Positions 36,087-48,738 of a stretch of DNA of 64,000 bases are shown here, piece by piece (positions within the stretch are counted from its first letter, which is position 1; each line of letters starts with the position of its first letter). Source of the DNA: an uncultured Gemmatimonadales bacterium (GTDB lineage Bacteria; Gemmatimonadota; Gemmatimonadetes; Gemmatimonadales; GWC2-71-9); contig CAWCFX010000004.1 in the NCBI GenBank assembly GCA_963795085.1, forward strand, positions 512,001 to 576,000, written 5' to 3'. The notes under the pieces were generated by a model. The model made no database searches, was not told the DNA's origin, and worked only from the letters and a program-made list of their open reading frames with translations. Made by a program: the position numbers and the translations under genes.

Positions 36087-37321
36087 TCAAGCCACGAGGC
36101 CAGCCGCTTTTCCCCGCACCAGTTTCCCCGCTCCCCAGCGAGTGGTGATGCGGTCAATGGCGGCCTGCAGGTTGCCCGGCGGGGTGTAGCGGACGGGGAC
36201 CTGCGCCGCGGAAGCGGGCCGGCGTTCACCCGCCTTGAGGAGGACATCAGACCAGAAGAGGTCCAGCTGCGATTCCTCTTCCACCAGGCGGTCAGCCCGG
36301 ACGGTGACCGTGCGGATCGCGACCGGCCGCGCCCTGGCCAGCGTGAACGCCCGGCGTGCGGCGTCCCACAACTCCACGTCCAGCAGGGCGGGGGCGAGGG
36401 CCAGCCCGTGACGGGCCGTCAGGTAATCGGTATAGCACAGTTCGATCACCACCCGCCGGGCCGCCAGGTGCCGGGCCCGCAGCCGGCGGCCCAGCCGCTC
36501 CGTCATCCGGCGAAGCAGGGTATGCAGCAGTCCCACATCGTTGCTGTCGCTTCCCAGCGTATGGCTCAACTCGAACTCGGCCCGCACGGCGGGCGGAAGC
36601 ACCGGGCGGGGATCAATGCCGCGGGCCCGGGTTACCAATTCGCGCCCCGGCCGCCCGAAGACCGAACAGGCCTGCTGCTCGGTCAGCGCCGCGACCTCGC
36701 CGATCAGGTCCAGCTGGTAATCGTCAAGCCGGGTCCGCATGGGCGCCGGCAGATCGGGCAGGAGTTCGACCTGGTGGGGCGCCAGGAAACCGGCCTCGTG
36801 ACCGGCTTGGACTTCCACCAACGGCTCGCCATCGCCGCCACCGTCTAGCCGGTCCGCCCGCACTGCCGCTTGGCTGACCAGCTTGTTGGTGGCCACCCCG
36901 ACGGTGAGGGGAAGCCGGATCCGGTCGCGGGTCTCCCGCTGGATCCGGTCCGCCAGGTCTGCGGCGGGGCCAAAGAGCCCGGCGGTGCCGCTCACATCGA
37001 GGAAGGCGTGGCCGTACCCCGCGGCTCGATGACCGGGGCATAGCAGCGAAGGACCTCGTGCAGCGCCCGCGATGCCCGGGCGTAGAGCTGGGGATTGGGC
37101 GGGAGAATCACCAGGTCGGGGCAGATTTTCCGGGCTCGGGGCAGGAGCATTCCTGGCCGGATGCCGGCCCGCCGGGCCTCCAAGGAAAGCGCCAGGACCG
37201 TGGCCCGGTCCGCCCCCGGGGGAGCGATCACGATGGGACGGCTCCGGAGCCCCGGCGCCGCCAATCCCTCTACCGTGGTACAGAAGGAAGGGGGGTCTAC
37301 ATAAAGAACGGCCCGGAGCAT
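36087..37321 (-). CDS. Y-family polymerase homologue (ImuB/DinB-like, catalytic acids degenerate); -1 frameshift near 37018
   Basis: YVDPPSFCTTVE, EARRAGIRPGM, CPDL, EPRG/YGHAFLD, TVGVATNKLVS; C-terminal QLDLF clamp-binding-like motif. Confidence 0.85.
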
Positions 37322-37322
37322 C

Positions 37323-37375
37323 TTCGGTCTTTCTTCGGTTATTCCGGAAGATATGCCTCCCGCCGCCGACGTCAA
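37323..37375 (-). promoter_or_regulatory. Sigma-70 promoter (TTGACG-N16-TATCTT) plus CCGAA-N6-CCGAA box
   Basis: -35 at 37375-37370, -10 at 37353-37348, direct repeat at 37338-37323 next to the ATG. Confidence 0.65.
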
Positions 37376-47382: not shown

Positions 47383-48516
47383 CTACAAGCCAGCTATCCC
47401 CTGGAAGAGGGCGACCTGGTGGTTGGCGGGTTTCCGCGCGGGCGCGCGATAGCGTTCTTCCCGGGTCCGGCGGAAGCCAAACTCGGCTTGGAGTTCCTGC
47501 AGACGCCGGGTCAGGGCGGCCTGGTACTCCCGCGACACGTAGTAACGGCTCTCGAAGTGGGCGTGGTAGCGGGCCGCCACCTCGGGGAACTCCGCTGCCA
47601 CGAAGGCGAGGAAGCGGGGGGCCAGGACTGGATCGAGCCGGAGCGCCGACCCGTGGACGTAGTATGCCCCCGCCTCCTTCGCAGCGGCGAAGAGAGCGGC
47701 CAGCCCCGGGCGATCGTCACTGATGCCGGGCAGGATCGGCGCCACCAGCAAGCCGGCGTGAATCCCCCCGTTTACGAGCGTTCTGAGCGCACGGAGCCTG
47801 GCCGCCGGAATGGGCGACCTTCGCTCCAGCCGCCGGGCCAGCGCGGCGCTGGCGGTGAGGAGCGAAATGTTGACGGTGACCTCGTGGATCCGGGACAGCT
47901 GCTGCAACAGCTCGAGGTCCCGGGTTACCAGCGGCGACTTGGTGATGATCCCGATCGAGAGCCCACGGTAGGACCGGAGCCGCTCCAGGATCTGCCGGGT
48001 GATCCGGTACGTCCGCTCGGCCGGCTGGTAGGGATCGGTGGCAGTGCCTATGACCAGCGAACTGTCCCGGAGCCTGGCGGGGTCCAGTGTTCTTGCCAGG
48101 ACCTCGGGTGCAGTGGCCTTGACGAGGATGTCCTTCTCGAAGGCCTCAAACTCACCGCCCGGCCCCCTCTCCGTAAGCGGGGAGGGGGAGCCGTTGGCCA
48201 TGGCTCTCTCGGTGGCGTAGCGATGGGTCTCCCGGGCGTAGCAATAGCTGCAGCCGAATTCACATCCGACGTAGGGGTTGATGGACCAGTAGCCCATACC
48301 CGTGGTGGCCGGCGTGTTGAGCACCGAGCGGACGTCCCACTCGATGAAGCGGGCGCCGCGCTGGCGCTGATCCAGGACGGAGAGGGCCGGCGGACCGGCG
48401 GACAGCAGCACCAGTTGCGCTTCGCTCGTGCCTCGCTTGGCTGGGGTGAGCACGGGAAGTTCGCGCCTGGCATGTTGTCCGTCGGAACGCCGAGCCGTCT
48501 CTCCGGCTAGCCACAT
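47383..48516 (-). CDS. Radical SAM protein, SplB/Rv2578c-like DNA-repair family; start uncertain
   Basis: INPYVGCEFGCSYCYA, GTATDPYQPAE, ITKSPLVTRD, APILPGISD. Confidence 0.9.
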   Translation of the reverse strand: MWLAGETARRSDGQHARRELPVLTPAKRGTSEAQLVLLSAGPPALSVLDQRQRGARFIEWDVRSVLNTPATTGMGYWSINPYVGCEFGCSYCYARETHRYATERAMANGSPSPLTERGPGGEFEAFEKDILVKATAPEVLARTLDPARLRDSSLVIGTATDPYQPAERTYRITRQILERLRSYRGLSIGIITKSPLVTRDLELLQQLSRIHEVTVNISLLTASAALARRLERRSPIPAARLRALRTLVNGGIHAGLLVAPILPGISDDRPGLAALFAAAKEAGAYYVHGSALRLDPVLAPRFLAFVAAEFPEVAARYHAHFESRYYVSREYQAALTRRLQELQAEFGFRRTREERYRAPARKPANHQVALFQGIAGL

Positions 48517-48674
48517 CTGCCCCATCCGCATTGCAGGCAGTGCACACAACCCGAGTTGCGCGCGATCGGCCCGGAGCAGTCGGGGCAGACGCGCACCAGG
48601 GCAATGAGCGCCGGTTTGATTTGCGGCGTGGGGGTGGCCGGGCGGGGTTCTTGGGGAGGGGGAAAGTGGAGCAT
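48507..48674 (-). CDS. 55-aa stand-alone Cys-rich zinc-ribbon protein
   Basis: Manual translation MLHFPPPQEPRPATPTPQIKPALIALVRVCPDCSGPIARNSGCVHCLQCGWGRCG*; lies directly downstream of a predicted promoter. Confidence 0.75.
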   Translation of the reverse strand: MLHFPPPQEPRPATPTPQIKPALIALVRVCPDCSGPIARNSGCVHCLQCGWGRCG

Positions 48675-48683
48675 GGGTCTGCC

Positions 48684-48738
48684 TTCGGCTTATGTTCGGT
48701 ACTACATCCGAATATACGCCGAACCTTTTGGCCGTCAA
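48684..48738 (-). promoter_or_regulatory. Sigma-70 promoter (TTGACG-N16-TATATT) overlapped by TTCGG-N6-TTCGG-N8-CCGAA-N6-CCGAA
   Basis: -35 at 48738-48733, -10 at 48716-48711; pentamers at 48684, 48695, 48708, 48719. Confidence 0.7.

What the first reader, a model, noticed from the sequence alone, without database searches (positions are those of the whole stretch)
47383..48674. Unannotated stand-alone zinc-ribbon microprotein coupled to an SplB-like radical SAM gene
Seen: a 55-aa ORF ending CPDC-x9-CVHCLQCGWGRCG is first after the boxed promoter, and its stop overlaps a plausible radical SAM start (ATGTGGCTAG). Known: many class II ribonucleotide reductases end in a similar CPxC...GCxxCxxCG.SxC tail. 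Inference: a free version acting as redox shuttle, metal carrier or partner for a damage-inducible radical SAM repair enzyme, a possibly undescribed two-gene repair module.
Basis: partly seen in the sequence, partly recalled or inferred. Interest (0 to 1): 0.75.

Follow-up and report, generated by a model that had tools for sequence, protein, structure and literature searches.

The report
SOS-controlled free ribonucleotide-reductase zinc-finger microprotein
A real, conserved 55-residue gene in Gemmatimonadales bacteria encodes a free-standing copy of the six-cysteine zinc-finger tip that class II ribonucleotide reductases use to re-reduce their active site, placed under a DNA-damage (SOS) promoter and usually, but not always, in front of a photoproduct-lyase-like radical SAM gene.

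Summary
On the minus strand, a 55-aa ORF (48507-48674) ends in six cysteines. Its stop overlaps the ATG of a 377-aa radical SAM gene (47383-48516). It lies behind a sigma-70-like promoter that carries two 16-bp boxes.

The ORF is a gene. Relatives keep all six cysteines (25 of 25 aligned). Across 116 unique sequences, pN/pS is 0.32 in frame against 1.45 and 1.64 out of frame.

A profile comparison places it on the extreme C-terminus of the class II ribonucleotide reductase (NrdJ) cysteine-rich domain (98.7%, E 2e-16).

In the window's own genome the box also precedes recA and lexA, so it is the SOS box. It precedes the microprotein in 120 of 123 non-redundant loci.

The gene was found only in two families of Gemmatimonadales. 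It is adjacent to the radical SAM gene in 99 of 123 loci, but the two are separable. A sister family has the boxed radical SAM gene alone. Eight genomes have the boxed microprotein and no radical SAM match, one of them cut at a contig end.

Best reading: an autonomous damage-induced zinc-finger/dithiol module acting in trans. Whether its client is the radical SAM enzyme or NrdJ is unresolved. It is a new variant of a known domain.

The parts
48733..48738 (-). -35 hexamer TTGACG
   Evidence: promoter scan, 10 of 12 matches, 1 site found against 0.1 expected
48711..48716 (-). -10 hexamer TATATT, lying inside the spacer of SOS box 1
48708..48723 (-). SOS box 1, TTCGG-N6-TTCGG read in the gene's direction
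   Evidence: exact pattern; the same pattern lies upstream of recA, lexA, a Y-family polymerase, DUF5131 and a radical SAM+HhH gene in the same genome
48684..48699 (-). SOS box 2, the inverted copy (CCGAA-N6-CCGAA in the gene's direction), in the 5' leader 10 nt before the ATG
   Evidence: paired inverted boxes recur in many relatives
48507..48674 (-). microprotein gene, 55 codons plus TAG
48510..48587 (-). six-cysteine module, residues 30-55 (C30, C33, C43, C46, C49, C54); predicted zinc ribbon homologous to the NrdJ tail tip
   Evidence: invariant in 25 of 25 sequences; hhalign 98.7%; AF2 pLDDT 84-89 over residues 31-55
48588..48674 (-). variable, proline-rich N-terminal half (residues 1-29), low model confidence
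48507..48516 (-). ATGTGGCTAG: the microprotein stop overlaps the candidate radical SAM start
   Evidence: in the 26 loci, most have in-frame start codons at -9, -3 or 0 relative to the stop
47383..48516 (-). SplB-like (COG1533-type) radical SAM gene, 377 codons plus stop
48241..48264 (-). CX3CX2C cluster motif (C85, C89, C92), the only cysteines in the protein
48403..48417 (-). QLVLL (residues 34-38), an N-terminal motif resembling a beta-clamp-binding motif
   Evidence: Q[LVIM]xL[FL] found in 43 of 109 unique orthologues; the consensus is recalled, not tested
47404..47418 (-). QVALF (residues 367-371), a C-terminal motif resembling a beta-clamp-binding motif
   Evidence: a similar motif lies in the last 30 residues of 55 of 94 complete orthologues

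Best explanation
The 55-aa ORF is a real gene for an autonomous, DNA-damage-induced microprotein. Its C-terminal 26 residues are a free-standing copy of the six-cysteine zinc-finger tip of the class II ribonucleotide reductase (NrdJ) cysteine-rich domain. SHOWN: it is conserved and under purifying selection. It is homologous to the NrdJ tip, with the same cysteine spacing. It lies behind this lineage's SOS box. It usually lies in one transcription unit with an SOS-controlled, photoproduct-lyase-like radical SAM gene, yet it is kept intact in genomes where that gene was not found. INFERRED: four cysteines hold a zinc ion and the other two form a redox-active pair, as proposed for NrdJ. When LexA repression is lifted, the small protein is made and acts in trans as a thiol/disulfide (electron or H-atom) shuttle for a radical enzyme of DNA metabolism. 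Two clients are possible. One is NrdJ, which is present with its own homologous tail in all 5 genomes tested that carry the microprotein but gave no radical SAM match. The other is the co-transcribed radical SAM enzyme, which in this window has no cysteine outside its Fe-S motif. My split is about 0.2 for NrdJ, 0.25 for the radical SAM enzyme as a facultative client, and the rest for neither. The operon link is explained at least in part by the shared SOS promoter.
For: Gene reality: six Cys are invariant in 25 of 25 aligned sequences. Across 116 unique 78-nt blocks and 6670 pairs, pN/pS is 0.32 in frame against 1.45 and 1.64 in the other two frames. Third-position entropy is 1.26 against 0.55 and 0.54 for positions 1 and 2. 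The motif always ends at a stop codon, in 147 of 147 instances. In the 1.84-billion-protein library, 2134 proteins reach E<=1e-3 and 31 reach E<=1e-10; most of the best 150 are 43-105 aa with the match at the C-terminus.

Homology: NF006417, last 29 positions, E 1.1e-5. hhalign against an NrdJ cysteine-rich-domain alignment gives 98.7%, E 2.2e-16, with 37 columns on the extreme C-terminus. The spacing C-x2-C-x9-C-x2-C-x2-C-x4-C matches Cys-920/923/933/936/939/945 of the studied NrdJd except for x5 in the last gap, and the Gemmatimonadales NrdJ tails also have x4.

Function of the homologue: in NrdJd all six Cys are needed for TCEP-driven turnover, zinc is bound, electron transfer can occur between subunits, and the native reductant is unknown (PMC5704485, abstract and sections 5, 9, 12 read). 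AlphaFold models of NrdJ tails show four Cys on zinc and a Cys pair at the opposite end (PMC9669993, passages read).

Fold: residues 31-55 have pLDDT 84-89 with three short strands.

SOS control: 14 exact boxes occur in the genome against about 8 expected. They lie upstream of recA, lexA (two boxes), a Y-family polymerase, DUF5131, a radical SAM+HhH gene and this ORF (two boxes). A box lies within 260 nt upstream in 120 of 123 non-redundant microprotein loci, including 12 of the 13 with no radical SAM gene downstream.

Autonomy: with profile A3 (positive control G211, E 1.3e-149), no radical SAM match at E<=1e-3 was found in G070 (98% complete), G126 (99%), G107 (96%, microprotein 274 nt from a contig end) or G434-G438 (completeness not given). 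All of them carry an intact boxed microprotein. Of these, all 5 tested have NrdJ with a full cysteine-rich domain in frames of 852-903 aa.
Against: No experiment or expression data exist; no RNA run holds the stretch. The redox role is transferred from a homologue that carries a further ~150-200-aa domain which the microprotein lacks. In that study a separately expressed cysteine-rich domain did not restore TCEP-driven activity to the truncated enzyme (PMC5704485, section 9). NrdJ with its tail is also present in the sister family that lacks the microprotein, so its presence does not discriminate between clients. Adjacency to the radical SAM gene in 99 of 123 loci and the candidate overlapping radical SAM start codons argue for a closer tie to that enzyme than 'autonomous' implies. 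A generic zinc ribbon could bind nucleic acid or protein without any redox chemistry. Completeness of G434-G438 is unknown.
Confidence: 0.45

Rival explanations
1. Dedicated subunit of the radical SAM enzyme. The microprotein binds the SplB-like enzyme and supplies the thiol H-atom donor or reductant, or a zinc-ribbon DNA grip, that the enzyme lacks.
For: It is adjacent, on the same strand, in 99 of 123 non-redundant loci. Candidate in-frame radical SAM start codons at -9, -3 or 0 occur in most of the 26 loci examined. The window's enzyme has only the three cluster cysteines, whereas its closest solved fold, spore photoproduct lyase, is listed with C140 mutants (the H-donor role of that Cys is recalled). 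In 12 sister-family enzymes without the microprotein, three columns carry Cys in 9, 9 and 8 of 12, against 0 of 114 in microprotein-linked enzymes.
Against: Eight genomes keep an intact boxed microprotein and gave no radical SAM match at E<=1e-3; one of them, G107, has the microprotein at a contig end. The radical SAM gene stands alone behind the box in all 12 sister-family loci and 3 own-family loci examined. The Cys-column contrast is one clade against another, and the 5 other microprotein-less enzymes show 0, 0 and 1 of 5. DinB_2, PEP_mutase or ORF6N genes separate the two in some lineages.
Confidence: 0.25
2. A non-redox zinc-ribbon adaptor. The SOS-induced small zinc ribbon binds DNA, RNA or a protein such as RecA, LexA, the clamp or a polymerase, and the likeness to the NrdJ tip reflects only descent of the fold.
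For: The closest structures by Foldseek are generic zinc ribbons (TFS4, L37Ae/eL43, YfgJ), though none reaches E<=1e-3. Weak profile matches go to ribosomal and polymerase zinc ribbons. The gene is autonomous of the radical SAM gene.
Against: All six cysteines are invariant, not only four. A structural zinc site needs four. The two extra positions correspond to those proposed as the redox pair in NrdJ.
Confidence: 0.2
3. A leader peptide (upstream ORF) whose translation only tunes expression of the downstream radical SAM gene.
For: Candidate radical SAM start codons overlap the microprotein stop. The ORF is first after the promoter.
Against: Amino-acid-level selection on a 26-residue cysteine motif. 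Persistence where no radical SAM gene follows. Homology to a folded domain.
Confidence: 0.04
4. A chance ORF in G+C-rich DNA, or an out-of-frame shadow of the radical SAM 5' region.
For: The genome is 67% G+C and long spurious ORFs abound. A 466-aa frame overlaps the region.
Against. In addition, the radical SAM N-terminal ~45 residues are not conserved, and the long frame's extra 89 residues match nothing.
Confidence: 0.01

Closest known systems
C-terminal zinc-finger tip of the cysteine-rich domain (CRD) of class II ribonucleotide reductase NrdJ (Loderer et al. 2017, PMC5704485; Burnim et al. 2022, PMC9669993)
   Same: Six cysteines with the same order and spacing at the very C-terminus, including CP[DE]C and CG motifs. 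Profile-profile probability 98.7%. A predicted small beta zinc-finger fold.
   Different: The microprotein is only the last ~26-30 residues. It has no catalytic barrel and no IscU-like part of the 150-220-aa CRD. It is encoded apart from nrdJ, behind an SOS box, usually next to a radical SAM gene. Zinc binding and redox activity are untested.
NrdJb, the separately encoded CRD subunit of split NrdJa+b reductases (as described in PMC5704485 and PMC9669993)
   Same: A case where the cysteine-rich tail is a separate gene product acting in trans.
   Different: As described in those papers, NrdJb carries the whole CRD (IscU-like domain plus zinc finger). The 55-aa protein here is the tip alone and lies in an SOS operon.
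SplB-like (COG1533) radical SAM proteins of SOS regulons: NCBIfam families Rv2578c (NF038135) and PA0069 (NF033668)
   Same: The downstream gene matches both models (E 1.6e-58 and 2e-57). SOS control of this group is documented: a LexA ChIP-seq site at Rv2578c/Rv2579 (PMC3381160, one table passage read), and splB as a conserved SOS member (PMC8565304 and PMC3765255, passages read).
   Different: Scores of 198 and 195 bits lie below the curated cut-offs of 430 and 360. None of the passages I read mentions an upstream cysteine microprotein.
Spore photoproduct lyase (SPL; PDB 4fhc, 4k9r)
   Same: It is the best structural match of the predicted radical SAM model (E 1.6e-7, TM 0.53-0.59 normalised to the target). 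Both have a CX3CX2C cluster motif.
   Different: Identity is 13-15%. The TIGR04070 score is 12 bits against a cut-off of 400. The window protein has no cysteine outside the cluster motif.
NrdH-redoxin and other small dedicated RNR reductants (recalled, not tested)
   Same: A small protein with a redox-active cysteine pair that serves a radical enzyme. This is what the microprotein may work like.
   Different: No thioredoxin fold and no sequence relation. The redox role here is an inference.

Membership tests
NrdJ CRD zinc-finger tip | Six cysteines, C-x2-C-x9-C-x2-C-x2-C-x4/5-C, at the extreme C-terminus | tested here: met
   C30, C33, C43, C46, C49 and C54 of 55 residues; invariant in 25 of 25 sequences; the motif ends at a stop in 147 of 147 instances; the spacing in NrdJd is given
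NrdJ CRD zinc-finger tip | Significant profile similarity to NrdJ tails | tested here: met
   hhalign 98.7%, E 2.2e-16; NF006417 positions 731-759 of 759, E 1.1e-5; the microprotein profile hits the ends of 681-883-aa frames at E 2e-10 to 2.5e-12
NrdJ CRD zinc-finger tip | Part of, or encoded with, a class II RNR (fused CRD or the NrdJb subunit) | tested here: not met
   A stand-alone 55-aa ORF with no RNR domain. The only RNR large-subunit match in the genome lies on another contig (C6:58-1542).
NrdJ CRD zinc-finger tip | Binds zinc and cycles a cysteine pair | not testable with these tools
   Needs metal analysis and thiol chemistry on purified protein
Zinc ribbon fold | Two zinc knuckles on a small beta sheet | tested here: inconclusive
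   AF2 gives three short strands with pLDDT 84-89 over residues 31-55. Foldseek's top hits are zinc ribbons, but the best E is 0.52.
SOS (LexA) regulon of this lineage | Operator shared with lexA and recA, overlapping the promoter | tested here: met
   TTCGG-N6-TTCGG lies upstream of recA, lexA, a Y-family polymerase and this ORF. The -10 hexamer lies inside box 1. A box precedes 120 of 123 loci.
SOS (LexA) regulon of this lineage | LexA binding and damage induction | not testable with these tools
   No RNA run was listed; needs EMSA or ChIP, and UV or mitomycin C transcriptomics
Rv2578c family radical SAM (NF038135), for the downstream gene | Score over the curated cut-off | tested here: not met
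   198.3 bits against 430
PA0069 family radical SAM (NF033668), for the downstream gene | Score over the curated cut-off | tested here: not met
   194.8 bits against 360
Radical SAM superfamily (PF04055), for the downstream gene | Pfam score over the gathering threshold and a CX3CX2C motif | tested here: met
   49.3 bits against 29.5; C85, C89 and C92 invariant in 24 of 24
Spore photoproduct lyase (TIGR04070), for the downstream gene | Model score over the cut-off; a catalytic cysteine outside the cluster motif (its role is recalled) | tested here: not met
   12.2 bits against 400. There is no non-cluster cysteine in the window protein. SPL is nevertheless the nearest solved fold.

The most novel reading that the evidence does not exclude
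The microprotein is a damage-induced, diffusible copy of the ribonucleotide reductase's own re-reduction tip. Under SOS it either feeds extra reducing equivalents into NrdJ or competes with the enzyme's tethered tail for the still unknown physiological reductant. Either way it would set dNTP supply during repair. It would be a bacterial RNR control exerted by a tail mimic, and a bait for finding the missing reductant of CRD-type class II RNRs. The same shuttle may also serve the cysteine-free SplB-like radical SAM enzyme.
Probability: 0.2. Interest if true: 0.8.

Novelty: new variant of a known kind. Interest (0 to 1): 0.55.

Why it matters
The six-cysteine tip of class II ribonucleotide reductases is known only as part of the enzyme or of its split NrdJb subunit, and its physiological electron donor is still unknown (PMC5704485). 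Here the tip exists as an independent 45-65-residue gene product, conserved across two bacterial families and wired to the DNA-damage response. This shows that the tip is an autonomous module. It also offers a minimal, tractable protein for studying its zinc and redox chemistry and for fishing out its partners. Finally, it gives a first lead on the SOS-regulated SplB-like radical SAM enzymes, for which I found no solved structure by sequence; that their substrate is unknown is recalled, not tested. The work also defines the SOS box of this Gemmatimonadales lineage: a TTCGG-N6-TTCGG direct repeat, often paired in inverted orientation.

Tried and rejected
(1) The search for homologous proteins with the 55-aa protein found no candidate sharing three 5-residue words. 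This is uninformative for so short a query.

I repeated it with a 12-sequence sub-alignment.

How public records name these small proteins is therefore unknown.

(5) Complex prediction for radical SAM plus microprotein gave no verdict (score 0.00, controls not run). I use it neither for nor against binding. A second job with NrdJ was not possible under the cap.

(6) No RNA holder was listed for the stretch, and two DNA runs hold only 0.09 of its sampled words.

(7) PDB sequence searches found nothing significant for the microprotein (best E 0.0017 to designed zinc fingers; Cys_rich_CPCC 8ey3 at E 0.0047). The radical SAM profile had 0 hits at E<=0.01.

(8) Foldseek of the microprotein model had no match at E<=1e-3.

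(9) The ESM Atlas returned only unnamed 'hypothetical protein' clusters.

(10) I considered and rejected the 466-aa frame from GTG 48783 as the true radical SAM gene. Its extra 89 residues add no domain match, and relatives do not conserve that region.

(11) I considered fusion proteins. Open frames of 260-581 aa ending in the motif were fetched (L144-L148), but I did not scan their upstream parts. In G+C-rich DNA they may be only stop-free stretches.

(12) The cysteine-column contrast between sister-family and microprotein-linked radical SAM enzymes is a one-clade contrast, so I do not use it as evidence of compensation.
Full report
**1. What is in the window**

All features are on the minus strand.
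- A sigma-70-like promoter, TTGACG-16-TATATT, lies at 48738..48711. It matches 10 of 12 positions, and it is the one site found against 0.1 expected from shuffles.
- It is followed by two 16-bp boxes in inverted orientation. In the gene's direction these read TTCGG-N6-TTCGG at 48723..48708, whose spacer contains the -10 hexamer, and CCGAA-N6-CCGAA at 48699..48684.
- Ten bases further on, an ATG at 48674 opens a 55-codon ORF ending CPDC-x9-C-x2-C-x2-CGWGRCG-TAG at 48507.
- The TAG lies inside ATGTGGCTAG, whose ATG (48516) opens a 377-codon frame running to 47383.
- That frame matches Radical_SAM PF04055 (49.3 bits, cut-off 29.5). It also matches the NCBIfam families Rv2578c (198 bits, cut-off 430) and PA0069 (195 bits, cut-off 360), so it falls below both equivalog thresholds.

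One caveat applies. Two further in-frame ATGs lie just upstream, and the first ~45 residues of the radical SAM protein are poorly conserved, so the exact start is only plausible.

**2. The ORF is a gene**

- A six-frame search of 41 related genomes found a match in 35. It returned short open frames with the same C-terminal motif, plus weaker matches at the ends of ~840-890-aa frames.
- In an alignment of 25 sequences the N-terminal half is variable and proline-rich. C30, P31, C33, C43, C46, C49, G50 and C54 are invariant.
- The 151 loci held at that point contained 147 instances of the motif, and every one ends at a stop codon.
- After I dropped the four NrdJ tails and the instances that do not have exactly 26 residues, 141 blocks remained, 116 of them unique. 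Across 6670 pairs, pN/pS is 0.32 in the ORF's frame against 1.45 and 1.64 in the two shifted frames. Entropy is 0.55, 0.54 and 1.26 at codon positions 1, 2 and 3.
- A profile search of 1.84 billion representative proteins gave 2134 hits at E<=1e-3 and 31 at E<=1e-10. Most of the best 150 are 43-105 aa with the match at their C-terminus, so gene callers do predict this family elsewhere.
- Pfam has no model for it (best hit 16 bits, below threshold). The ESM Atlas neighbours are unnamed 'hypothetical protein' clusters.

**3. What it is related to**

- NCBIfam places residues 27-55 on the last 29 positions of the B12-dependent ribonucleotide reductase model NF006417 (E 1.1e-5).
- I built an alignment of seven NrdJ C-terminal domains: three from relatives' loci and four from the representative search. 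hhalign aligns the microprotein profile to its extreme C-terminus with 98.7% probability, E 2.2e-16, over 37 columns.
- The cysteine spacing equals that of the studied Stackebrandtia NrdJd (Cys-920, 923, 933, 936, 939, 945), except that the last gap is x4 instead of x5. The Gemmatimonadales NrdJ tails also have x4.
- In NrdJd all six cysteines are needed for TCEP-supported turnover and zinc is bound. Four cysteines are proposed as zinc ligands and two as the redox pair. Electron transfer can occur between subunits, and the native reductant was not found (PMC5704485: abstract and sections 5, 9, 12 read).
- AlphaFold models of NrdJ tails show the same arrangement, preceded by an IscU-like domain (PMC9669993: passages read).
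- The microprotein is only the tip. It lacks the rest of the 150-220-aa domain.
- Its own AF2 model has pLDDT 84-89 over residues 31-55, with three short strands. Foldseek's best matches are generic zinc ribbons, none significant.
- The words 'standalone' and 'stand-alone' do not occur in the main text of PMC9669993, and I saw no free-standing tip described in the sections of PMC5704485 that I read. My literature searches returned nothing that describes a free tip or a microprotein upstream of splB-like genes. This is not proof that none is in print.

**4. The boxes are the SOS box of this lineage**

Record titles of 79 of the 80 closest loci name Gemmatimonadota or Gemmatimonadales. One 2.5-kb contig is labelled Acidimicrobiia.

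In the window's own 3.9-Mb genome, TTCGG-N6-TTCGG or its complement occurs 14 times, against about 8 expected from base composition. The sites lie directly upstream of:
- recA (PF00154) and lexA (PF01726 plus PF00717; two boxes);
- a DUF5131 gene;
- a radical SAM plus helix-hairpin-helix gene;
- a Y-family polymerase, inside this window at 37323;
- the microprotein (two boxes).

Among 123 non-redundant microprotein loci, 120 have an exact box within 260 nt upstream of the cysteine motif. SOS control of SplB-like (COG1533) radical SAM genes is already documented. There is a LexA ChIP-seq site at Rv2578c/Rv2579 (PMC3381160, one table passage read). splB is reported as a conserved SOS member in PMC8565304 and PMC3765255 (passages read). 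LexA binding and induction were not testable here.

**5. Distribution and linkage**

- In 401 genomes sampled across the phylum, matches at E<=1e-9 occur in 135 of 165 genomes of the window's family (f1) and 4 of 5 of family f3.
- They occur in 0 of 94 genomes of the sister family f2 and in 0 of every other family (0 of 7, 2, 30, 70, 4, 13, 3 and 3).
- The one exception is f9 (4 of 4), where the match is the tail of a 681-883-aa NrdJ frame.
- The radical SAM orthologue (E<=1e-20) is present in 39 of 46 f1, 33 of 47 f2 and 26 of 27 f3 genomes.

Of the 123 non-redundant microprotein loci:
- 99 have the radical SAM gene starting within -80 to +400 nt on the same strand;
- 11 have it 413-1759 nt downstream;
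- 13 show none in the DNA held, and in two of these the contig ends within 13 and 274 nt.

In most of the 26 loci examined for start codons, candidate radical SAM starts fall at -9, -3 or 0 relative to the microprotein stop. The intervening genes are DinB_2/mycothiol-S-transferase-like in five loci scanned, PEP_mutase in two and ORF6N in one.

**6. The two genes are separable**

- In all 12 f2 loci examined, and in 3 f1 loci, the radical SAM gene lies directly behind the box with no microprotein. A fourth f1 locus (L195) has a 25-codon remnant with only the last four cysteines.
- Conversely, the radical SAM profile A3 scores E 1.3e-149 in control genome G211. It finds nothing at E<=1e-3 in G070 (98% complete), G126 (99%) or G107 (96%, microprotein near a contig end).
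- It also finds nothing in the five genomes G434-G438, whose completeness was not given. These carry a distinct sub-group of boxed microproteins (L087, L108, L111, L114, L115).
- In G070 the gene is followed by a convergent ORF, and in G126 by an ORF of DinB-like sequence (by eye, not scanned). All of these copies keep the six cysteines.
- Cross-tabulating the 46 f1 genomes against searches gives 35 with both genes (one at E 1.5e-9), 4 with the radical SAM gene only, 3 with the microprotein only and 4 with neither. Related genomes are not independent, so this is descriptive only.
- All 5 tested genomes that carry the microprotein but gave no radical SAM match have an NrdJ with a full cysteine-rich domain, in frames of 852-903 aa.
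- The window's own NrdJ lies at a contig end (C6:58-1542), so its tail is not assembled.

**7. The radical SAM partner**

- Its AF2 model (pLDDT 76.5, with both termini disordered) is closest to spore photoproduct lyase: 4fhc at E 1.6e-7 and 4k9r at E 1.9e-7, TM 0.53-0.59 normalised to the target, 13-15% identity. Generic radical SAM folds follow.
- It is not an SPL by model score (12 bits against a cut-off of 400).
- The window protein has no cysteine outside CX3CX2C.
- No solved structure matches the family by sequence.
- Many orthologues carry QLxL[LF]-type motifs near the N-terminus (43 of 109) and at the extreme C-terminus (55 of 94). The f2 N-termini often read Q(L)xLF. These resemble beta-clamp-binding motifs. 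The consensus is recalled, not tested. If they are real, they tie the enzyme to DNA replication or repair sites.

**8. Mechanism**

Shown: this is a conserved, selected, SOS-box-controlled gene that encodes a free NrdJ-type six-cysteine tip. [quoted passage not shown]

Inferred: the protein holds zinc and has a redox-active cysteine pair. After LexA cleavage it acts in trans as a small thiol/disulfide shuttle for a radical enzyme.

The radical SAM enzyme is the obvious client from gene order and from its lack of cysteines. NrdJ is the obvious client from homology and from the genomes where no radical SAM gene was found. The shared SOS promoter alone could preserve the gene order. I give 0.45 to the autonomous trans-acting redox module. 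Within that, I cannot separate the two clients with confidence. I give 0.25 to an obligate-style radical SAM subunit, 0.2 to a non-redox zinc-ribbon adaptor and about 0.05 to leader peptide or artefact. The complex prediction gave no verdict, and no expression data were available.

**9. Novelty**

The domain, the SOS link of SplB-like genes and split NrdJ tails are all known. A free tip-only microprotein, SOS-wired and lineage-specific, is a new variant in a new context.

Counts include a few genomes flagged as unpublished (G018, G083, G121, G177, G202). No claim depends on them alone.

Noticed in passing
window 36087-37338: A Y-family polymerase gene on the minus strand is split into two ORFs that overlap by 4 nt. 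The ORF at 36992-37321 carries IMS positions 1-94. The ORF at 36087-36995 carries IMS positions 104-146 plus IMS_C. This is a frameshift, an assembly error or a programmed shift. An exact TTCGG-N6-TTCGG box (37323-37338) abuts its start.
   Followed up: partly
window 47404-47418 and 48403-48417; loci L182-L197: The SplB-like radical SAM proteins carry QLxL[LF]-type motifs near the N-terminus and at the extreme C-terminus. Sister-family N-termini often read Q(L)xLF. They look like beta-clamp-binding motifs (consensus recalled).
   Followed up: partly
loci L182-L191, L196, L197 against 114 microprotein-linked orthologues: Sister-family radical SAM enzymes, which have no microprotein, carry cysteines in three columns (window residues V258, S290, Q343) in 9, 9 and 8 of 12. 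Microprotein-linked enzymes carry 0 of 114 in those columns. Five other microprotein-less enzymes do not share the cysteines, so the contrast may simply mark one clade.
   Followed up: partly
G000:C1:802884-804188 and G000:C1:3365-4117 (own genome, outside the window): Two further boxed genes: a radical SAM plus helix-hairpin-helix protein and a DUF5131 protein. They extend the predicted SOS regulon of this organism.
   Followed up: partly
L150 (G211:C1:7000-17000): One genome has two microprotein copies with identical 26-residue motifs about 5.2 kb apart, each with boxes. Only the second is followed by the radical SAM gene.
   Followed up: no
L195 (G090:C133:3500-6300): A shortened 25-codon version of the microprotein keeps only the last four cysteines. 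It still lies between paired boxes and the radical SAM gene, so it is either a decaying copy or a minimal variant.
   Followed up: no
L085, L119, L055, L125, L010; L062, L134; L064: In some lineages a DinB_2 (mycothiol-S-transferase-like), PEP_mutase or ORF6N gene sits between the microprotein and the radical SAM gene. DinB_2 proteins are thiol-dependent enzymes (recalled), which may be relevant to a thiol shuttle.
   Followed up: partly
G000:C6:58-1542: The only ribonucleotide reductase large-subunit match in the window's genome runs off a contig end, so the organism's own NrdJ tail is not in the assembly.
   Followed up: no
protein P0001 (representative library): A 3932-aa protein matches the microprotein profile in 41 separate stretches (E 8.4e-31). 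It is a giant repeat protein built of similar cysteine units. I did not examine it.
   Followed up: no
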